From IMG/VR virus record IMGVR_UViG_3300036794_000053, positions 1-64,000 of that record: DNA of 64,000 nucleotides, one strand, 5' to 3'. Both the position numbers and the translations under genes were made by a program. The notes under the pieces were generated by a model that saw only the letters and a program-made list of their open reading frames with translations, was not told where the DNA came from and made no database searches. Shown here in pieces: positions 1-57,165 of this stretch; within the stretch, counting starts at the first letter, position 1, and every line of letters begins with the position of its first letter. The DNA comes from a virus (taxonomy: Duplodnaviria; Caudoviricetes).

Positions 1-210
1 GCTCCCACCCGAACCGACAAACCGACCCTGGCCGAGCCTGACATCAACCCTTCCCGACTATCCAAGCCTCCCCTTCCCGTGTCGGCCCCACCCTCTCCGA
101 CAACCCGTCCCTGCCCGAGCCCTTTCGCCCCGCTCCATCCCGACTATCCGAACTGCAGGACACAAATGACCCACGCGTGTACCTGGACCCAACGCAATCC
201 CATCCAATTC
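1..210 (+). repeat. Periodic pentamer array (NNNCC)n punctuated by GAC; candidate guide-RNA locus, truncated by window edge
   Basis: GAC at 16, 56, 99, 142. Units 56-98 and 99-141 are exactly GAC + 8 pentamers (TATCC AAGCC TCCCC TTCCC GTGTC GGCCC CACCC TCTCC; AACCC GTCCC TGCCC GAGCC CTTTC GCCCC GCTCC ATCCC). Degenerate pentamers continue at 186-210. Transcribed strand unknown. Confidence 0.85.
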
Positions 211-222
211 GAAGGAGAAAAA

Positions 223-930
223 ATGACTACCAGTCTTGTCACGAGCGCGTTCGAGAAGTACATTCCGAAGGCGTGGCCTTACGAGTACTCTGGTACTCTC
301 CACATCAATCGGATCGCGGGTGGTGTCCCGACGAATCCGAATGTTGCGAAAGCGTGGATTGAGACTAAGCTCGGTAAGCAGACCGACGACATCATCCGCA
401 AGCAGGTTGTGGAGACGATGACTCAGCGCGGGGTTTCCATGGAGGAAGCCGTCGAGCTGGTCGACTCAAACAAGCACCTCAACGGTTTCAAACGGGACAA
501 GGCGCACGAAAACACCCTCTACATCGAGGGCCGTCAGCTGAAGGCCGCTATCAAGGAAGCCGCGTCGTGTGCGGTGGCGGTGGGTAAGCTTCCGTCCCGC
601 GGGTGGGGTGCCACGAACAAAGGTTCGAAAGCTTTCGTCGCCGAGCATATTTGTGTGGTGGAGGACATTCTCCACTTGGGTGTGACGGAGCCGACGGGTA
701 TCGCGCAGCGGTTCGTCGCCACCCACAACGGCACAGGTATCCAATATGAGGAGTATGTCGATGACGTCGACATCGACTTCACAGTAATTACTGACCACAA
801 GTTTCCGGAGGAGCAGTGGGCGATGTTGTGGCTCACCGGACAGGAACAAGGTATCGGTGCGACCCGGTCACAAGGCTACGGCCGTTACACCGTTACCCGC
901 TGGGACGCTGTGAGGACCCCACAGCAATGA
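223..930 (+). CDS. Stand-alone Cas7/RAMP-superfamily-like protein (235 aa)
   Basis: ATG 223 after GAAGGAG RBS. LYIEGRQLKAAIKEAA resembles the RAMP 'yIpGsslKGaiR' motif. C-terminal G-rich loop GIGATRSQGYGRY. Confidence 0.75.
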   Translation: MTTSLVTSAFEKYIPKAWPYEYSGTLHINRIAGGVPTNPNVAKAWIETKLGKQTDDIIRKQVVETMTQRGVSMEEAVELVDSNKHLNGFKRDKAHENTLYIEGRQLKAAIKEAASCAVAVGKLPSRGWGATNKGSKAFVAEHICVVEDILHLGVTEPTGIAQRFVATHNGTGIQYEEYVDDVDIDFTVITDHKFPEEQWAMLWLTGQEQGIGATRSQGYGRYTVTRWDAVRTPQQ

Positions 931-1142
931 ACCTCACTGTGTATGTGACAGCCGATTTGCACAGGCGTATGAAACGCGCGGAGCCCAGGATCAATATGTC
1001 TGACCTGGTCACGAAAGCGATTGAGGCTGAGCTGACGCGGCGCCAGGACGAAGCTGACCGCCAGCTCAGGTGGGCGGAGGAAATCTATGGCGACAAGATT
1101 CGGCCGTTTCCCTGGCTGCCGAGATGGAGGTATGGCGCGTGA
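927..1142 (+). CDS. Small ribbon-helix-helix-like DNA-binding protein
   Basis: ATGA overlap with upstream gene. MNLTVYVTADLHRRMK...INMSDLVTKAIEAEL fits the beta-alpha-alpha RHH pattern. Confidence 0.6.
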   Translation: MNLTVYVTADLHRRMKRAEPRINMSDLVTKAIEAELTRRQDEADRQLRWAEEIYGDKIRPFPWLPRWRYGA

Positions 1143-3695: not shown

Positions 3696-5168
3696 GTGGC
3701 GACGACTGTAGTGAAGAAGTTGGTGGACTCCGATCTCATCACCGGCGATGAGATCGAGTTCCGCACCGACGACAAGAAACTCATCACGCTGCCGAAGGGC
3801 ACGAAGTACAGCGAGTTGATGAGGATTCTGGAGGCGAAGAAGCAGGAACAGGAAACTGTTGCTGACTTCACCCGAGTCTTCAATTACCGCCCGTATGACG
3901 GTGCGGTGGCCACCGCGATCGTGCTCAAGGCTAGGTATGGGTTGGTGATGGGGAAAACCCTCACCATCCAAACCCCGTTCGGTGAGCAGAAACGGCCGCC
4001 GCAGGTGTTGGAGGTCCCGATCGGGCCGGGTGGGAAGTCGATGCAGGCGCCGTGGGGGTGCATCGAGATTCCCGTGATCGAGGGCGGCGAGGTGCATCTG
4101 GGTGCGACGACGCACTCCGATTTCGGGTCGGTGTTCTTTATCCGGATTCGGGCGAAGCGGATGTACGCGAAGGAAGCGGAGGAGTTTTTCGCCGAGATCG
4201 CGGAGCAGTTGAAGAACGCGAGCATCTACCGTGGTAAAGCGGTGGCGGGTGCCGATGAGTTGGCGTTCATCGAGGACCTGGACAAGTTCGATCCGAAGCA
4301 GATCGTGTTCGCCGCCGGGATTCAGCAGCAGCTGGAGGCGGCGTTGTATTCGCCGCTGCGTCATCCGCAGGCGTACCGGTCGGAGAAGATTCCGCTGAAG
4401 CGCGCGGTGCTGTTGCACGGCCCGTACGGAACAGGGAAGACCAGCATCGGGATGTTGGTGGCTCAGGAGGCGGTGAAGGCGGGGTGGACGTTTGTGATGG
4501 CCCGCCCGGGCCGTGACCGCGTCCAAGATGTCCTCACCACTGCCCGGTTGTATGCGCCGGCTGTGGTGTGGGTGGAGGACATCGACACCGACACCGGCTC
4601 CAGCAACCCGAAGTCGATCTCCGAGATGCTGGATGCGTTTGACGGCATCACCACCAAGCAGGGTGAGATCATGATCGCCCTATCCACCAACCATATCGAT
4701 CGCGTGCCACCGGGAATGTTGCGTCCTGGCCGTCTCGACTATGTGTTGGAGATCGCGGCGCTGGATCGGGAAGCGACCGAGCGGCTGATTCGGGTGGTGG
4801 TGGCGCCTGGGAAGTTGGCGAAGAACGTCGACTTCGACGCGGTGTACGCGGAGATGGATCATTTCCTCCCCGCGTTTGTCCGGGCCACAGCCGATCGGGC
4901 CAGGTCGTTCGCTATCCACCGCACGAACGGTCGCACCGACTATGTCCTCACCACGGAGGATTTGGTGGGTGCGGCGCGGAGTCTGCATTCCCAGCGTGCC
5001 CTGCATCAGAGCGCGCAGGACCCGGCGCCGTTGCCGTCGGTGGATAAGGCGTTCCGTGACGCGGTCACGAAGGCCGTGAATGGGGTGCAGATGTTGGACG
5101 ACGACGGGGATTACATGGGGAAGTTGACTGTTCCCGCCGCTCCCGTCGCGCGGCCACTAAGAACCTAG
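3696..5168 (+). CDS. Classical AAA ATPase (single AAA module, long N-terminal region)
   Basis: Walker A GPYGTGKT, Walker B VVWVEDID, second region of homology TNHIDRVPPGMLRPGRLD. Confidence 0.92.
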   Translation: MATTVVKKLVDSDLITGDEIEFRTDDKKLITLPKGTKYSELMRILEAKKQEQETVADFTRVFNYRPYDGAVATAIVLKARYGLVMGKTLTIQTPFGEQKRPPQVLEVPIGPGGKSMQAPWGCIEIPVIEGGEVHLGATTHSDFGSVFFIRIRAKRMYAKEAEEFFAEIAEQLKNASIYRGKAVAGADELAFIEDLDKFDPKQIVFAAGIQQQLEAALYSPLRHPQAYRSEKIPLKRAVLLHGPYGTGKTSIGMLVAQEAVKAGWTFVMARPGRDRVQDVLTTARLYAPAVVWVEDIDTDTGSSNPKSISEMLDAFDGITTKQGEIMIALSTNHIDRVPPGMLRPGRLDYVLEIAALDREATERLIRVVVAPGKLAKNVDFDAVYAEMDHFLPAFVRATADRARSFAIHRTNGRTDYVLTTEDLVGAARSLHSQRALHQSAQDPAPLPSVDKAFRDAVTKAVNGVQMLDDDGDYMGKLTVPAAPVARPLRT

Positions 5169-15917: not shown

Positions 15918-16357
15918 TGGCGCAGGGTGATGTCAACATCACGGTGGTCGGTAACCTTACGGCGGCGCCGGAAGTGAAGTACACCGCGTCGGGTGCGGCG
16001 GTCGCTAACTTTACGGTGGCTTCGACTCCGCGGTCGTTTAATAAAGATACGAAGGAGTGGGAGGACGGGGAGTCTCTGTTTTTGCGTTGCAGTATTTGGC
16101 GTGATGCGGCGGAGAATGTGAGGGAGTCGTTGGATCGTGGGCATCGTGTGATTGTTACGGGTCGGTTGAAGTCGCGTTCGTTTGAGACGAAGGAGGGTGA
16201 GCGGCGGACGGTGTTGGAGTTGGAGGTTGAGGAGGTTGGTCCGTCGTTGCGGTATGCGCAGGCTGAGGTGACGAAAACACCACGGTCAGGCGGGAAGCCG
16301 CGGCCAAACGTGGGGCATGAGGAGTTTGTTGGCGCGGATGAGGAGCCACCGTTCTAA
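15917..16357 (+). CDS. ssb: Single-stranded DNA-binding protein
   Basis: [10 protein letters not shown]...[10 protein letters not shown]...; acidic tail DEEPPF. Confidence 0.95.
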
Positions 16358-17529
16358 TGGAAGAGAAGAAGGTGGACTACCCGCAGCTATTCGACGCATT
16401 GCCGGATTCTGTTGAGGCTGCACTACGGGCCAGCATAGAGAAATTCGGAGTGCTTGTCCCGATCGTGCGTGACCAGCATGGTGGGATGATCGATGGAAGG
16501 CATCGTGCTCGGATCGCCGATGAGCTCGGGGTGTCATATCGGGTCGACGTTGTTCAAGTCATCGGCGCCGAGGAGGCTCGGGAAATTCAGCGGACTCTGA
16601 ACGCCGATCGACGGCACCTGTCAGGGGAGCAGCTGCGCGAACATATTGTTTTCTTGGCTCAGCAGGTTGATGAGGACGGAGTCGGCGTCTATTCGCAGCC
16701 AACTATCGCTCAAGTCACTGGTGTGTCGCAACCGTATGTAAACCAAACGCTGGGCGACGACCAACTTATAAGTACTTATAAGTTGCCAGACCGGCGCTTG
16801 GGGGCGGACGGGAAAGTCCGTCCGGCTCGTCGGCCGCCGACCTTGATCCCTGCCTCATCCGAGGCCCAAGCGGCCCGTGCGAGCGAGGTGCTGAACAAAC
16901 TCTATAACAGGTCGTGGGCCCAGAACCCAACGGCGACCGAGGTGATTCGGGAAGGCCGTCAAGCCGCTAAGGCTGAGCGTGTTGCGGCGATCGCTGCCGC
17001 TCCTGTATCCGCGATCGGAGAAGACGAGACATTCCCGGTAGTTCTTGCCGACCCGCCCTGGCGCTACGACTATGCCGAGGACACGAGCAGGCAGATCGAG
17101 AACCACTATCCGACCATGACTATCGACGAAATGGCGGAACTTTATGTCCCGTCAGCTGAGGACTGCGTGCTGTTCTGTTGGGCCACAAGTCCGAAGCTGC
17201 GTGACGCATTCGTTCTATTGGACGCGTGGGACTTCATCTATAAGACGTGCATGGTGTGGGTGAAGGACAAGATCGGCATGGGCTATTACGCGCGGCAGCA
17301 ACATGAACTGCTATTGATTGCCACGAAAGGTAACTTGCCGGTACCGGAGCCAGCCGATCGTCCGTCGTCGGTCTTCCATGGTGAGCGGACTGCGCACTCA
17401 GCCAAGCCACCAATTGCACACGAGCTGATCGAAGCCATGTACCCGCACTACCGGAGATGCGAAATGTTTGCACGGCAGCCACGCGAGGGCTGGAAAGTAT
17501 GGGGCAACCAGGCAGGCGGTGCGGCATGA
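16357..17529 (+). CDS. ParB-like N-domain + HTH + MT-A70-family adenine methyltransferase
   Basis: LRASIEKFGVLVPI...IDGRHR; VVLADPPW; HYPTM; HELLLIATKG; HSAKP; EMFAR. Confidence 0.88.
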   Translation: MEEKKVDYPQLFDALPDSVEAALRASIEKFGVLVPIVRDQHGGMIDGRHRARIADELGVSYRVDVVQVIGAEEAREIQRTLNADRRHLSGEQLREHIVFLAQQVDEDGVGVYSQPTIAQVTGVSQPYVNQTLGDDQLISTYKLPDRRLGADGKVRPARRPPTLIPASSEAQAARASEVLNKLYNRSWAQNPTATEVIREGRQAAKAERVAAIAAAPVSAIGEDETFPVVLADPPWRYDYAEDTSRQIENHYPTMTIDEMAELYVPSAEDCVLFCWATSPKLRDAFVLLDAWDFIYKTCMVWVKDKIGMGYYARQQHELLLIATKGNLPVPEPADRPSSVFHGERTAHSAKPPIAHELIEAMYPHYRRCEMFARQPREGWKVWGNQAGGAA

Positions 17530-27949: not shown

Positions 27950-28246
27950 ATGTTGAGCGAGCAGTTCACGAAGTCGAGTTTCTCGGTGTTGAGCTGTGTT
28001 GAGGTGGCGTACCGCAAGTCCTCGTTCTGTGGCCACCCCGGCTGTGTCGAGGTGGGTGCCGGCGACGACGGGCATGTGCACATGAGGGACTCGAAGGACC
28101 CGGATGGCACGGTGTTGACGTTCACCCGCGAGGAATGGGAGTTGTTCCTGGCGGGTGCGAAGGCCGGCGAGTTTGATCTTCCCCTTCCTCGCGCTGGTGT
28201 CGAGGTCGGGTATCTGTTCGCTCAGAGCGTTGTTGAGGGTGGCTGA
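27950..28246 (+). CDS. DUF397 protein with duplicated N-terminal motif
   Basis: KSSFS..SCVEVA then RKSSFC...GCVEV; RDSKDP; FTREEWELFLAGAKAGEFD. Confidence 0.9.
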   Translation: MLSEQFTKSSFSVLSCVEVAYRKSSFCGHPGCVEVGAGDDGHVHMRDSKDPDGTVLTFTREEWELFLAGAKAGEFDLPLPRAGVEVGYLFAQSVVEGG

Positions 28247-28961
28247 TGGCTCATTCGCCGCACCGCCGGTGGAAGGGTTGCCAGTTGTGTAAGCCGCAGA
28301 AGTTCCGTGATCTGGGTCGGGCTAGGCGTGATCCGTTCGCGGTGCGTCGGAAGCTGGGTACCAGGCGGCGGGCTGGTCGGCATGATGTGCCGGCGGATCA
28401 GTGTGAAGCTGCTTCGTAGGTGGCGTTGCCACGGTTCGTGGTGGTGTTGCCAGTATTGCGACGAGCCGATGTGCAATGGCTGGCATGATCCGCACCTGGT
28501 TGCTAGGTGGTTTTACCGTCGCCGTGTGAGGAGAGAGCAGCGACGCGAAGAACGCGAGGACGAAGAAAAGCGTGAACGGCAACGGCGAGAGGCAGATGAG
28601 TGGCGTGAACGGCGCCGACGCACCTACGGTTGGTGAGCGGATCGCGCCGGTGCAGGTGGTGTGTGGGATGTGCGGCCGGTGGGGTGTGCGTAAGCCGGGC
28701 GACGAAACGTTGATCATGCACCTGGGCAGGATCGCGCCATGCCGGGAGAAGAATGGCTAGGTTGTTGGGTGCGTCGCATTACTGGCGTTCTTGGCATTGT
28801 GGTTGGCGCAGCTCGCCTTGGGCGGCTAAGTGGCCGAGAGCTGTGCAGGTTTCGTTTAAACGGCGGCAGCGTAAGGTTGAGAACCGTCGTTGGCGTAAGG
28901 ATCAACTCCACCCGAATGGGTGATCAAATCAGCGGGGCGGCCCACGTTACGGTGCCAATCA

Positions 28962-29552
28962 ATGAACTCTGAACTCGACTTCTCCCGGTTCCACCCACTT
29001 GACCACCGACCCGGCGGCGCCCGGTGCCGCTCGCTGTATGGCGGCACGCGGAATCACCTGGTGATGGCGTGGCAGTTCAAGTGGTCCGCGCGGCTGCGTG
29101 AGCTGACGTTGTGCCGGCTGGGCTGGCATGAGCGCTGCACCGCAACGTCCTACAACTCGGACGGTACGGAACGGAAGCGGCAGGCATGTTGGTCGTGCGG
29201 CGCCGATCTGCGGTGCCGGCACCGGTGGATTTACGGCCAGCTGGACGGTGAGATCGTTGAGCATTGCCAGCTGTGTTCCGTCGAGGCGCCTGATCGGGGT
29301 GTCAAGGTCCATGCGTGGCTGAGGAAGCATCACTTGCCTCGTATCCATGGGTGTATTTGGGATCGGCATTGCCGGTTCTGGTGTCCGTGTGCGCGGGTGT
29401 CGTTGTATTGGGGTCCGTTGTCGGTTGATGTTGAGCTGCCTGGTTATTGGGTGGGTATGGACCTTGACTTTGAGACGCATATTGCGGTGCGGCGGCGGAT
29501 GTGGGAACGCGGCCACGTCAGTTGTCATTGGAGGCAGCAACGCTGGCACTGA
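28962..29552 (+). CDS. Cys/His-rich hypothetical protein
   Basis: ORF with several Zn-ligand pairs. Confidence 0.55.
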   Translation: MNSELDFSRFHPLDHRPGGARCRSLYGGTRNHLVMAWQFKWSARLRELTLCRLGWHERCTATSYNSDGTERKRQACWSCGADLRCRHRWIYGQLDGEIVEHCQLCSVEAPDRGVKVHAWLRKHHLPRIHGCIWDRHCRFWCPCARVSLYWGPLSVDVELPGYWVGMDLDFETHIAVRRRMWERGHVSCHWRQQRWH

Positions 29553-37644: not shown

Positions 37645-39008
37645 GCCCGTAGTCGAGGCCTTGGCCTTCGGCGAGGAGCGCGAGGAACGCGAGGTATGCG
37701 TGGGCGCGGAACCGGATGATGCACTGGTCGCCTTCCACGGACACCAGGTCGCATTCCTCGGCGTCGGCGAGGTATTGCTCAGCTGCCCGGAAGTGGTCTC
37801 TTCCTGTCATTCTTTTCTTTCTCCTCCTGGTTCTTTCGGTGTTGTTCCCTGAGTCGGCGGGCGACACTGGGTAGGGTTTCGACCCGTCCGACGCCGAGGC
37901 AGATACCGCAGGTGGGTTCGTTCGGCCCCGGCTGTTTCCCCATGCAGCGGCCGCACGTTGCGTAGTCAGACATCGTTCTCCTCGCATGGGCACCAGATGG
38001 TGTCGGTGTGCGGGGCGCCACAAAGTGGACAGGTCCCCGCTTCTTGCCATAGATGAGCGGGTAACGCAAGGTCCGCCAGGTCATCGTCGTAACTTGTCAT
38101 TGAGGCTCAACCCGCATTCGCCGCACCATAACGACACGACTGCTTTCTGGTCGCCGGCTACCACGAGGAGTTCGTGTATGCAGTTGGGCTTCCCGGTCAG
38201 GTGTGGGGCGAGGTAGGTGACGCGCAGGTTTTGTTCCGCCTCATCCAGGCTGAGGAATCTCGGTTTCGGTTTCGGTCTCATGCTCCTTGTCCTCGGTCAG
38301 TCTGAGCCGGCCCGCCCCCTTGATACGGGCCGGTTCAGCGCGGTGGCAGTCCCCGATGGCCAGCAGCACCCGCCCCCGAATGGTGATGTCGAGGTGTAGC
38401 TCCAGCAGCCACAGCCGGAACGCCACAGTCAAGAACACGGGCGGTTCGTTTAGAGACATAGCTGTGCCGTTTCACGAAAGGGGCAGGCTAATGATTGTGC
38501 TCGGGATTCTGCTAGCCCTGTTGGGCTACTTCCTCGCCATTGGCGTGCTGGAAACCATCGGGATCATTCTGGTGGTGGTTGGTGCGGTGCTGTTGTTGAT
38601 CGGGCATGTGGGTCCGATCGGTGGGCGGTGGTGGTGAGTCGAGCTCGGCGGTGAGCGCTTCGGCTAGGCCGGCGAGCTCGACTCGTAACCACTGTTCGAA
38701 GTCAGCTGACACGTTGCTTCGGTGGCTTCGGCGGCCGGCGCCCTTCGTTCTTCTTACGGCCGTGCGGGCACTGGTCGGTGTGCCCGTCACCCCATGGGCC
38801 GACTCGTCCCCCGCAGGTCGGGCACTTCTCGTCGGACAGTTGGATGTTGATCAGGTGGGTCAGGTGGTCGAACGCGGCGTCTGTTTCCTGTACCCGGCGG
38901 GCGGCGGCTTCTTCGGGTGTCTCGGGGTACTGGTCGAGTTTGGCCCAGTTCACGAACCTGGCCCATGCCCGACGCAACTCAAGTAACATCATCACTCCCT
39001 GGGGATAG

Positions 39009-55586: not shown

Positions 55587-55728
55587 TCAGGTGTTGTCAT
55601 GGAACTACCTAACGAGTTGCCTAGGCCTTTGTTTCCGGAACCGGAACCCATTCCCGATTGGGTTGTGACGGTGATGAAACGTGGCTGCCGTCGTCAGAAA
55701 GAAATTAATTGGGTCGAGGTGTTGGACA

Positions 55729-57165
55729 ATGCGCGACGAGATCACCCTGAATGAAGTCCATGCACCTATTGACCAGTTGAAACTTTTGCGCCGACTCCAA
55801 ACGATGAAAGAGGAGTTGGATCGGCGGATCGCGTCGAAGGTGGTGGACCGGCCGAGGCCGTGGCATAAGAAGGCTCGGGCGAAGCAGCTCCCCCCGAGTG
55901 GTGACTGGAACATTTGGTTGATCATGTCGGGGCGCGGCTGGGGGAAGACCGCGACCGGCGCGAACTGGTTGGCCGAACAAGCCGCGAAATACCCGCAAAC
56001 CGAGTGGGCGGTGGTTGCGCCGACGTGGCGGGACTGCCGCAACACCTGCCTCCAAGGCTCCTCCGGGGTGTTGAAGGCGTTGTTGCCGGACGAGTACGAC
56101 TCGATGAACCTGTCCGACCTGACCATCCGCCTCAAAAACGGCAGCCGGATTTACGGGTACAGCGCTGACGGTTTCGAACGGCTGCGTGGCACGAACTTGT
56201 CGGGGGCGTGGGTGGATGAGGCCGCGGTCATGGACCAGGTCGAGGCCATGTTCTTCGAAGCGCTCATGCCGGCCCTGCGGATCGGTGACAAGCCGCGGGT
56301 GGTGATTACCACCACCCCACGGTCGGTGAAGTTCCTGCGTGATCTGTTGGCCCGCACGGATGGTTCTGTGGCGGTCACTCGGGGCAGCACGAAGGAGAAC
56401 GCGGACAACTTGTCCGCCGCCGCCCTCGCCGAGCTGTACACCCGCTATGAGGGCACCCGGATTGGTGAGCAGGAACTCGAAGGGAAGATGCTGCAGGACC
56501 TGCAAGGGGCGCTGTGGTCGCACGACATTTTGGAAGCTACCCGGGTTCAGAAGGCACCGAATCTGGTTCGGGTGGTGGTGGGGGTGGACCCGGCTACCAC
56601 GTCGGGGAAGAAGTCGGACTACACCGGCATCGTCGTCGCCGGCCGGTCCAGTGACGGCCATTTCTATGTGCTGGAAGATGCGACGACGAAGGGCACCCCG
56701 AATCAGTGCATGGCGAAAGCGGTGGGTTGTTATCACCGGTGGCATGCGGATCGGATCATCGGGGAGATGAACAACGGCGGCGACTTCATCGAGTCCGTCA
56801 TCCGCGCCGTCGACCCCACCGTCTCCTACAAAACGGTACGGGCCACCCGGGGGAAGTTCATTCGGGCCGAGCCGATCTCGGCGTTGTGGGAGCAGGGCCG
56901 CGCGCACATGGTCGGCGTGCACCCCATTCTGGAAGACCAAATGTGTGTGTTCACCCACGACGGGAAAGAATCCCCGGACAATCTGGATGCGTTGGTGTGG
57001 GCGGCGACTGAACTGAATGTTGGCGCGACCGCGATGGCGTATTTGGCGGCGCTGGCGAACATTTGCCGCGAATGTGACATGCCGAATTTGAAATTGTCGA
57101 CCGCGTGTTACAAGTGCGGGGCCGCGTTGAAAACAGATGTAGAGGAAGGGGGCCGGTGTGCCTAA
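55729..57165 (+). CDS. terL: Terminase large subunit
   Basis: GRGWGKT, WVDEAA, ITTTP, GVDPA, DNLDA. Confidence 0.95.
   Translation: MRDEITLNEVHAPIDQLKLLRRLQTMKEELDRRIASKVVDRPRPWHKKARAKQLPPSGDWNIWLIMSGRGWGKTATGANWLAEQAAKYPQTEWAVVAPTWRDCRNTCLQGSSGVLKALLPDEYDSMNLSDLTIRLKNGSRIYGYSADGFERLRGTNLSGAWVDEAAVMDQVEAMFFEALMPALRIGDKPRVVITTTPRSVKFLRDLLARTDGSVAVTRGSTKENADNLSAAALAELYTRYEGTRIGEQELEGKMLQDLQGALWSHDILEATRVQKAPNLVRVVVGVDPATTSGKKSDYTGIVVAGRSSDGHFYVLEDATTKGTPNQCMAKAVGCYHRWHADRIIGEMNNGGDFIESVIRAVDPTVSYKTVRATRGKFIRAEPISALWEQGRAHMVGVHPILEDQMCVFTHDGKESPDNLDALVWAATELNVGATAMAYLAALANICRECDMPNLKLSTACYKCGAALKTDVEEGGRCA

What the first reader, a model, noticed from the sequence alone, without database searches (positions are those of the whole stretch)
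16..149. Array grammar: GAC + 4x NNNCC + NNNTC + 3x NNNCC, with variable triplets that read like codons
Seen: two exact 43-nt units (56-98, 99-141) and one 40-nt unit (16-55). In both full units the fifth pentamer ends TC instead of CC, and the short unit has ACATC in a similar place, so this is higher-order structure rather than slippage. Variable triplets are unique per unit: TAT AAG TCC TTC GTG GGC CAC TCT and AAC GTC TGC GAG CTT GCC GCT ATC. These are stop-free and GC3-rich (YKSFVGHS, NVCELAAI). Inference: CCGAC is a processing or boundary signal, and each unit encodes a 24-nt target or a gapped NN-x pattern, possibly in codon phase. The codon look may only reflect C bias at the third position.
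Basis: partly seen in the sequence, partly recalled or inferred. Interest (0 to 1): 0.85.

Follow-up and report, generated by a model that had tools for sequence, protein, structure and literature searches.

The report
Phage VIPR guide-RNA array, C-rich type
The five-base-phased C-rich repeat is the guide array of a VIPR system, a CRISPR-related RNA-guided gene silencer of phages first described in 2026 preprints. It sits next to its Cas7-like protein gene, so it is a real and interesting feature but an unusual copy of a known kind, not a new kind.

Summary
The window starts at base 1 of a 106,197-bp phage contig, and the array continues across the contig junction (genome 106,003-106,197 plus window 1-149, about 345 nt, 8-9 units). 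It is the only such tract in the genome.

Gene 223-930, just downstream, has a Cas7/Csm3-type RAMP fold (Z about 10). About 50 of 57 relatives of that gene, in actinophages, prophages and a cultured Microcystis phage, carry the same grammar next to it: pentamers N-N-c-Y-C, reset by a 3-nt GAC, with unit lengths 33/38/43/48.

This matches VIPR systems (bioRxiv 10.64898/2026.04.26.720920 and .720927): one Vipr protomer per pentamer, and the variable NN bases read target DNA while skipping every third base.

I tested that rule here. Guides from relatives spell, in codon phase, conserved motifs of rival phages' vipr, DnaB and primase-helicase genes. No target was found for this phage's own units.

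It differs from the characterised type: the constant letters are C on the vipr-sense strand, the G-reading residues are replaced, and guides abut without a structured tail. The transcribed strand is not settled.

This scan has already logged VIPR-related notes in at least 159 other genomes, including this C-rich clade in three.

The parts
1..15 (+). 3' part of the unit that spans the contig junction (three pentamers ending CC). The array continues upstream at genome 106,003-106,197, outside the window.
   Evidence: The junction unit is 50 nt with a 2-nt phase slip at the contig break, so some array sequence may be missing from the assembly.
16..55 (+). 40-nt irregular unit (GAC plus one pentamer, then GAC plus a slipped tract)
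56..98 (+). Guide-like unit U6: GAC plus 8 pentamers; NN series TA AA TC TT GT GG CA TC
   Evidence: No target found.
99..141 (+). Guide-like unit U7: GAC plus 8 pentamers; NN series AA GT TG GA CT GC GC AT
   Evidence: No target found.
142..149 (+). Terminal GAC plus TATCC: the 8-nt boundary motif that closes the array. In relatives the same motif sits directly before the ribosome-binding site of the RAMP gene.
150..222 (+). Spacer and ribosome-binding site (GAAGGAG at 211-217) of the RAMP gene. No terminator lies between the array and the gene.
223..930 (+). vipr-like gene: 235-aa single-domain RAMP with a Cas7/Csm3 fold and a G-rich loop (GIGATRSQGYGRY)
   Evidence: AF2 model pLDDT 84. All top Foldseek hits are Cas7-type RAMPs. 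VIA Z 9-10 over about 160 residues. hhalign to the SUSP1-type Vipr family gives E 2.7e-4 over 142 collinear columns. 1383 homologs, none annotated.

Best explanation
The array is the guide-RNA (vrRNA) array of a VIPR system, and gene 223-930 encodes its Vipr protein.

By analogy with the characterised type II system of Escherichia phage SUSP1, the array is transcribed. One Vipr protomer binds each pentamer and the protomers form a helical filament. The constant letters of each pentamer are held by the protein, and the two variable letters (NN) are presented for pairing. Target DNA is read as NN-x-NN-x, so a unit of 6-10 pentamers specifies 12-20 bases, typically the first two bases of successive codons in a conserved gene of a competing phage. 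Binding silences transcription.

The 3-nt GAC acts as a shortened repeat that resets the register and separates adjacent guides. The next pentamer, mostly TACCC, completes an 8-nt constant boundary.

I think the C-rich strand, co-oriented with vipr, is the RNA (about 65 %). This would make it a C-scaffold variant in which the constant C5 takes the place of the pyrimidine Y3 of the published G-G-Y motif.

The conserved upstream gene (genome 105,466-106,002; 178 aa, helical) is the likely accessory (vap-like) partner.

Shown here: the grammar, the fold, the two-way association of array and gene, and the 1-nt-skip matches of relatives' guides.
Inferred: transcription, filament formation, processing at GAC, silencing, and the strand.
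For: 1. Fold. The gene is a Cas7/Csm3-type RAMP. Its profile aligns collinearly with the SUSP1-type Vipr family through helix-1, thumb and G-loop.

2. Association, gene to array. 49 of 57 non-redundant loci holding the gene have an array within 3 kb by a strict filter. Several of the remaining 8 show one by eye: L044, L062, L068 and a mini-array in L042. The cultured Microcystis phage Mae-JY09 also has one.

3. Association, array to gene. Of 25 IMG/VR pattern hits, 14 contigs hold the gene. Of the other 11, four show no array (chance matches) and most of the rest are small fragments or have the array cut at a contig end.

4. Only the upstream gene and the RAMP gene are conserved around the array, as in the two-gene VIPR loci described in the paper.

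5. Pentamer period with 3 constant plus 2 variable letters, and quantised units, matches the published vrRNA logic, including alternative repeat classes and contiguous 'staggered' arrays.

6. Code test.
- In 266 units against 0.86 Mb, perfect hits for units of 8 or more pentamers occur only with a 1-nt skip: 1 unit against 0.025 expected.
- That unit (L022) matches 16/16 the K/N-V-A-E-G-W-L site of the vipr gene in 10 other loci, in codon phase.
- Two of three 10-pentamer guides of the Streptosporangium prophage L012 have exact 20/20 matches in IMG/VR, against about 0.04-0.09 expected per pattern (my estimate, scaled from the hit counts of the 16-base patterns). They fall in the Walker A motif of Toprim-D5_N primase-helicases and in a DnaB helicase motif. 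The hits whose frame I could resolve (4 of 6) are in codon phase.

7. Strand.
- 95 % of array bases have the C-rich strand in the vipr sense.
- The C-rich RNA is nearly unstructured: MFE -41.6 against -142 kcal/mol for genome windows of the same length.
- The SUSP1 residues that read G1 and G2 (D177, W178, R138) correspond to A213, T214 and E176/E177 here, while R179, which reads Y3, is kept as R215.
Against: - No transcript data exist for this phage or its clade.
- No target was found for this phage's own units.
- The profile match to characterised Vipr is only borderline (Prob 42 %).
- No structured 3' tail like that of SUSP1 vrRNAs lies between units.
- The evidence for the code rests on three guides from two relatives.
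- The published alternative repeat class NNNGG is the reverse complement of this array, so the RNA may come from the other strand.
- Hairpins lie on the vipr-proximal side of the array in L068 and L044 but on the distal side in Mae-JY09 and L048, which does not settle polarity.
- L050 has the gene but no array within 6 kb. L042 has only a mini-array of about 100 nt.
Confidence: 0.85

Rival explanations
1. It is a VIPR system, but the guide RNA is transcribed from the opposite strand as NNNGG repeats ending in GGGTA-GTC. It then belongs to an alternative repeat class already listed in the discovery preprint, and the C-rich appearance is only the non-transcribed strand.
For: The preprint lists NNNGG, YNNNG and NNNNG vrRNAs. 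All characterised vrRNAs are G-based with a conserved 3' element, and read on the minus strand each unit here ends in a constant 8-mer. L049, L051 and L065 carry arrays inverted relative to vipr. L068 and L044 have a hairpin between vipr and the array.
Against: 95 % of array bases would then be antisense to both flanking genes, with no room for a promoter or terminator, because arrays abut the stop codon upstream and the ribosome-binding site downstream. On that strand the base 5' of NN would be a purine in 72 % of pentamers, whereas the published Y3 pocket excludes purines. The G-reading residues are not conserved, while the Y3 reader is.
Confidence: 0.3
2. The array is a sequence-periodic scaffold RNA, or the leader of the RAMP mRNA, bound by the RAMP protein for autoregulation or assembly. 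The variable bases carry no targeting information.
For: No targets were found for this phage's own units. Arrays abut the RAMP gene's ribosome-binding site. The L022 guide is only 2 mismatches from its own vipr gene, which would fit autoregulation.
Against: Relatives' units give exact in-phase matches to conserved replication and vipr genes far above expectation, and only with the 1-nt skip. Arrays also lie downstream of the gene, inverted, or up to 2 kb long.
Confidence: 0.07
3. It is a DNA-level element (packaging site, genome terminus, replication origin or partition site), or a Rho loading tract between operons.
For: Both ends of this contig, and of an independent 103,779-bp relative, fall inside the array, and many metagenomic contigs end in arrays. 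Two ParB-like genes lie just upstream. The RNA would be C-rich, G-poor and unstructured, as rut sites are.
Against: The two contig termini share no sequence and show no terminal repeat, which fits assembly breaks in a hypervariable tract better than a defined end. In prophages and most contigs the array is internal. The ParB-like genes are not conserved with it. The large terminase gene is 55 kb away. None of these roles explains the strict 5-nt phase, the GAC reset, or the in-phase matches to other phages' genes.
Confidence: 0.05
4. It is the end of a proline-rich coding sequence.
For: Frame 1 is open from base 1 to 930.
Against: The period is 5, not 3. Unit lengths and indels between relatives are not multiples of 3. 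The upstream gene ends with a stop codon immediately before the array. The downstream gene has its own ribosome-binding site and ATG at 223, and homologs start there. The lack of stop codons follows from 54 % C.
Confidence: 0.01

Closest known systems
VIPR systems (Vipr protein, vap gene and vrRNA); type II of Escherichia phage SUSP1 and a Pseudomonas fulva prophage is the characterised example (bioRxiv 10.64898/2026.04.26.720920, 10.64898/2026.04.26.720927, 10.64898/2026.10.15.759431)
   Same: Phage-borne. A lone single-domain RAMP gene plus one small conserved partner gene. Flanking non-coding arrays of tandem pentamers with constant letters alternating with two variable letters. Arrays upstream and/or downstream of the gene. 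Relatives' guides match conserved genes of other phages, including other vipr genes, by the NN-x rule with the skipped base at the wobble position.
   Different: The constant letters are c-Y-C on the vipr-sense strand (GG-R on the other strand), not G-G-Y, and only one letter is invariant across the clade. The SUSP1 G-reading residues D177, W178 and R138 are replaced. Units are 6-10 pentamers rather than 9-16 and abut with only a 3-nt GAC, with no leader, own promoter or structured 3' tail. Arrays reach 0.3-2 kb. The partner gene has no detectable fold relative. Hosts are Actinomycetota, with a cyanophage branch.
Alternative VIPR classes in the discovery preprint: NNNGG, YNNNG and NNNNG repeats, and 'staggered' arrays whose vrRNAs abut with a 1-nt overlap
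   Same: Read on the opposite strand the array is NNNGG (NNNNG in low-GC relatives). Units abut directly.
   Different: I could not check whether this clade is among the preprint's seven types, because its figures and data files are not held. The preprint text does not mention a C-based scaffold or the GAC reset.
Type III and type VII CRISPR-Cas backbone (Csm3, Cmr4, Cas7 on crRNA)
   Same: Closest solved folds (Z 9-10). A thumb and G-rich loop. One protomer per fixed step of RNA. An 8-nt constant element at the unit boundary recalls the 8-nt crRNA tag.
   Different: No repeat-spacer array and no other cas genes. The step is 5 nt rather than 6. Guides are non-contiguous. There is a single RRM.

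Membership tests
VIPR (Vipr + vrRNA) | Stand-alone RAMP protein with RRM core, thumb and G-rich loop, outside any CRISPR-Cas locus | tested here: met
   AF2 model. All top Foldseek hits are Cas7-type RAMPs. VIA Z 9-10. The neighbours tested give no match to any Cas family.
VIPR (Vipr + vrRNA) | Sequence homology to characterised Vipr proteins (SUSP1 clade) | tested here: inconclusive
   hhalign of the two family profiles gives Prob 41.8 %, E 2.7e-4 over 142 collinear columns covering helix-1, thumb and G-loop. tblastn finds no SUSP1-like protein.
VIPR (Vipr + vrRNA) | Tandem pentamer repeats with constant letters and hypervariable NN, next to the vipr gene | tested here: met
   Present in 49 of 57 related loci.
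VIPR type II (SUSP1 type) | Constant motif G-G-Y on the RNA, co-oriented with vipr | tested here: not met
   The vipr-sense strand reads N-N-c-Y-C and the antisense strand reads G-G-R-N-N. The G-reading residues are not conserved. It therefore cannot be filed as type II.
VIPR type II (SUSP1 type) | Each vrRNA has its own leader and a conserved structured 3' tail (pseudoknot) | tested here: not met
   Units are separated only by GAC. The whole C-strand tract is nearly unstructured. Compare the SUSP1 locus.
VIPR (Vipr + vrRNA) | Targets read by the 1-nt-skip rule (NNx), mostly in coding sequence with the skip at the wobble base | tested here: met
   Met for relatives' guides: L022 against vipr genes and L012 against primase-helicase and DnaB. 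Not demonstrable for this phage's own units.
VIPR (Vipr + vrRNA) | Accessory vap gene in the locus | tested here: inconclusive
   A 178-aa helical gene is adjacent in 37 of 57 loci. It has no Pfam family and only one weak PHROG match of unknown function (E 0.006), with no Atlas or fold match. Relation to vap1-6 could not be checked.
VIPR (Vipr + vrRNA) | vrRNAs expressed and co-purifying with Vipr; programmable repression | not testable with these tools
   Needs RNA sequencing, pull-down and reporter assays.
CRISPR-Cas class 1 | Repeat-spacer array plus a multi-gene cas operon (Cas5, Cas10 or Cas8, adaptation genes) | tested here: not met
   No direct-repeat array. No match to any Cas family in the flanking genes tested.
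Rho-dependent terminator (rut tract) | C-rich, G-poor, unstructured RNA downstream of a gene | tested here: inconclusive
   The composition and lack of structure fit. However, G at the variable positions is near the genome average, and the strict phase, GAC reset and target matches are not explained.

The most novel reading that the evidence does not exclude
This actinophage and cyanophage clade uses a C-scaffold guide. The RNA is the C-rich strand, and only one pyrimidine per pentamer (the equivalent of Y3) is read by the protein. The two guanine pockets of the published Vipr have been lost, and guides are punctuated by a 3-nt mini-repeat (GA-C) instead of structured tails. That would show the VIPR filament needs only one fixed base per step, and it would provide a second, unstructured, G-free guide format.
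Probability: 0.55. Interest if true: 0.6.

Novelty: new variant of a known kind. Interest (0 to 1): 0.5.

Why it matters
VIPR is a newly described relative of CRISPR that recognises DNA with a non-contiguous guide. This locus extends it to temperate phages of high-GC Gram-positive bacteria, with a cultured cyanophage in the same branch.

It has a different constant motif, different base-reading residues, compact tail-less guides and a new partner gene.

The relatives' guides point at the most conserved motifs of rival phages' replication genes and of their vipr genes. This supports the idea that these systems serve phage-against-phage competition and choose targets that cannot escape by synonymous change.

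If the C-rich strand is the RNA, the format would help define the minimal rules for Vipr-RNA recognition and for engineering such guides.

Tried and rejected
- DNA similarity to 50,697 phage records, near and distant: no match.
- Pfam and PHROGs for the RAMP gene: nothing. PDB sequence profile search: only noise and a weak type VII Cas5 G-loop match.
- Rfam on the right-end 6.2 kb, which holds the array's right-end 195 nt: no relevant family.
- The upstream partner gene gave no family (one weak PHROG match of unknown function), no Atlas neighbour and no fold match by Foldseek or the wide structural search. A Cas11-like reading is therefore not supported.
- A second periodic region near 22.8 kb is ordinary coding sequence.
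- A coding reading of the tract was rejected on period and indels.
- Packaging-site or terminus reading: two independent genomes break in the array but share no end sequence or terminal repeat.
- Targets of this phage's own units: IMG/VR exact scans at chance level; own genome and relatives no better than shuffles.
- No general excess of relatives' units against vipr genes beyond the single L022 guide.
- The simple consensus scan found no useful promoter or terminator.
- The preprint's supplementary files are not held, so I could not check whether this clade is one of its seven types.

Full report
**What is there.**
The window is bases 1-64,000 of a single 106,197-bp phage contig. It carries a large terminase gene at 55,681-57,162, a portal gene and a DnaB gene, and a serine integrase, an HTH regulator and two ParB-like genes near the right end.

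The reported tract parses as stated: GAC followed by pentamers ending CC, with two 43-nt units at 56-98 and 99-141 and an irregular 40-nt unit at 16-55.

The tract is cut by the contig start. Its other half lies at genome 106,003-106,197, beginning right after the stop codon of the last gene. The whole array is about 345 nt, with units of 38, 38, 39, 50 (across the junction, with a 2-nt slip), 40, 43 and 43 nt. It is 54 % C and 16 % G.

The lag-5 autocorrelation of C is 0.30 (shuffles 0.00 +/- 0.054), with secondary peaks at 38-39 and 43-44. It is the only place in the genome, on either strand, with at least 6 of 8 in-phase CC.

**The neighbour.**
The array ends at 149. A ribosome-binding site and an ATG at 223 open a 235-aa gene with no Pfam or PHROG family but 1383 unannotated homologs.

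Its AlphaFold model (pLDDT 84) matches only Cas7-type RAMPs: Csm3, Cmr4, type VII Cas7, Cas7-11 and type IV Csf2. Foldseek E-values reach 8e-7, and Z is 9-10 over about 160 residues.

**Comparative anatomy.**
I collected relatives of this gene from IMG/VR and from genomes of Nocardiopsis, Streptomyces, Actinomadura, Streptosporangium and Streptacidiphilus. Nearly all carry the same kind of tract next to the gene, 0.1-2 kb long.

The sequences do not align, but the grammar does. The spacing between CGAC marks peaks at 33/38/43/48/53 and is 3 mod 5 in 270 of 560 cases. Pentamer composition is N-N-c-Y-C, and the pentamer after GAC is mostly TACCC.

Lower-GC relatives use NNNTC (L062) or NNNAC (L068 and L072). 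The cultured Microcystis phage Mae-JY09, PP395641.1, carries the array at 38,462-38,846, directly after the gene. So only C5 and the CGAC mark are invariant.

By a strict filter, 49 of 57 non-redundant loci have an array within 3 kb, and 95 % of array bases have the C-rich strand in the sense of the RAMP gene. Arrays may lie upstream, downstream or, rarely, inverted.

In the reverse direction, 14 of 25 IMG/VR contigs found with an array pattern hold the gene. Of the other 11, four show no array (chance matches) and most of the rest are small fragments or have the array cut at a contig end.

Only one other gene is conserved with the pair: the 178-aa helical gene just upstream, found in 37 of 57 loci. 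It has no recognisable family or fold.

Arrays evolve fast, by unit-sized indels, unit duplication and C/T changes at position 4.

**Identification.**
A literature search led to three 2026 preprints on VIPR systems. A phage-encoded RAMP protein (Vipr) and usually one accessory gene (vap) are flanked by non-coding RNAs made of tandem pentamers, YNNGG in the studied type.

One protomer binds each pentamer and the protomers form a filament. The constant G-G-Y bases are flipped into protein pockets. The NN bases pair with DNA while every third target base is skipped, giving transcriptional silencing of competing phages and satellites.

The preprint also reports seven types, alternative NNNGG, YNNNG and NNNNG repeats, and 'staggered' arrays whose guides abut.

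I located the SUSP1 locus (NC_028808, genes at 28,031-29,061, with G-rich TNNGG repeats co-oriented with vipr). I built a profile of its Vipr family. hhalign against the family studied here gives E 2.7e-4 over 142 collinear columns through helix-1, thumb and G-loop. That is suggestive but not conclusive on its own.

**Testing the code.**
I took the NN pairs of 266 distinct units and searched 0.86 Mb (this genome plus relatives' loci, with arrays masked) with 0-3 skipped bases, against order-shuffled controls.

Perfect matches appeared with the 1-nt skip: 11 places, against 0-1 for the other rules and for shuffles. For units of 8 or more pentamers, one unit scored against 0.025 expected.

That unit is the last guide of L022. 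It matches 16/16 the conserved K/N-V-A-E-G-W-L site of the vipr gene in ten other loci, and 15/16 in six more. NN falls on codon positions 1-2 and the wobble base is skipped. L022's own gene differs in the last NN.

I then scanned IMG/VR with three 10-pentamer guides (20 specified bases) of the Streptosporangium prophage L012. The chance expectation is about 0.04-0.09 per pattern, my estimate scaled from the 9 hits seen for 16-base patterns.
- One guide gave 2 exact hits, in the Walker A motif (YGTGANGKS) of Toprim-D5_N-DUF5906 primase-helicases.
- One gave 4 exact hits. Two lie in confirmed DnaB genes at the motif AGEIDLIVDK. For the other two (L124, L125) the reading frame could not be resolved.
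- One gave none.
- The four hits with a resolved frame are in codon phase.

So this array family does behave as NN-x guide arrays aimed at conserved genes of other phages. The published observation that some guides target other VIPR systems recurs here.

**This phage's own guides.**
The NNx patterns of units 56-98 and 99-141 gave 9 IMG/VR hits each, spread over GC 32-66 % and unrelated proteins, which is chance level. All five regular units score no better than shuffles against the phage's own genome and the relatives. Their targets are unknown. The host and its resident prophages, the likely targets, are not available.

**Which strand is the RNA?**
This is open.

For the C-rich strand:
- Co-orientation with vipr and the flanking genes, with no room for antisense promoters or terminators.
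- A nearly unstructured RNA: -41.6 kcal/mol, z +1.85 against shuffles, against -142 for genome windows.
- A structural mapping. In SUSP1, D177 and H17 read G1, R138 and W178 read G2, and R179 reads Y3. Here D177, W178 and R138 correspond to A213, T214 and E176/E177, while R179 is kept as the invariant R215. The only invariant RNA letter, C5, sits immediately 5' of NN, exactly where Y3 sits.

For the other strand:
- All known vrRNAs are G-based.
- The preprint's NNNGG class is the reverse complement of this array.
- On that strand each unit would end in a constant 8-mer, like a 3' tail.
- Some loci have inverted arrays, or hairpins on the vipr side.

I put the C-rich strand at about 65 %.

**Rivals.**
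A coding reading fails on period and indels. A Rho-loading or spacer role, a packaging site, an origin or a partition site do not explain the phase, the GAC reset or the target matches.

Both ends of this contig, and of an independent 103,779-bp relative, fall in the array, but they share no end sequence and no terminal repeat. I read this as assembly breaks in a hypervariable tract, so the array here may be incomplete.

**Verdict.**

The feature is a VIPR guide array with its Vipr gene. The kind is known from 2026 preprints. This scan has already logged VIPR-related notes in at least 159 other genomes, including the same C-rich clade in three.

It differs from the characterised type in its constant motif, base-reading residues, punctuation, guide length and partner gene. 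I class it as a new variant of a known kind, with the caveat that it may coincide with the preprint's NNNGG class, which I could not check.

Noticed in passing
genome 106,003-106,197 joined to window 1-15; L099 and L100 (G014 ends): This contig and an independent 103,779-bp relative both begin and end inside the array, with no overlap or shared end sequence. Many metagenomic contigs also stop in arrays. The likely cause is assembly breaks in a hypervariable tract, so the array here may be longer than assembled.
   Followed up: partly
L022:5940-5982 against the vipr genes of L009, L016, L025, L026, L029, L036, L050, L054, L055 and L088: The last guide of one relative matches, 16 of 16 NN bases and in codon phase, a conserved site in the vipr genes of ten other phages. 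Its own vipr differs by 2 bases. This points to anti-VIPR targeting or autoregulation.
   Followed up: yes
L012:3791-3896 against L121-L126: Two 10-pentamer guides of a Streptosporangium prophage match, 20 of 20, the Walker A motif of primase-helicase genes and a DnaB helicase motif in viral contigs of GC 36-72 %.
   Followed up: yes
PP395641.1 (L101) 37,713-38,900: The cultured Microcystis phage Mae-JY09 carries an unannotated copy of this system: the RAMP gene, a 385-nt array of mostly 33-nt units, then a strong hairpin. It could serve as an experimental model.
   Followed up: partly
L044:6960-7040: Two adjacent 38-nt units are near-identical, differing at 2 bases. This is a recent unit duplication and shows how arrays grow.
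   Followed up: no
L042:6830-7480 and L050:6670-6770: In two lower-GC relatives, tRNA-like sequences follow the RAMP gene directly (not checked with the tRNA finder). L042 has only a mini-array of about 100 nt before them, and L050 has no array.
   Followed up: no
window 927-1142: The gene overlapping the RAMP gene's stop codon (ATGA) encodes a 71-aa ribbon-helix-helix-like protein with a weak CcdA match (E 0.0015). It is not conserved with the locus in relatives.
   Followed up: partly
L073 (genome 100,001-106,197): The right end of the genome holds a large serine recombinase, an HTH_3 regulator and two ParB-like (DUF6551/DndB-like) genes just upstream of the VIPR partner gene. The phage is probably temperate.
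   Followed up: partly
window 3696-5168 and 16357-17529: There is a classical AAA ATPase and an MT-A70 family adenine methyltransferase in the early region.
   Followed up: no
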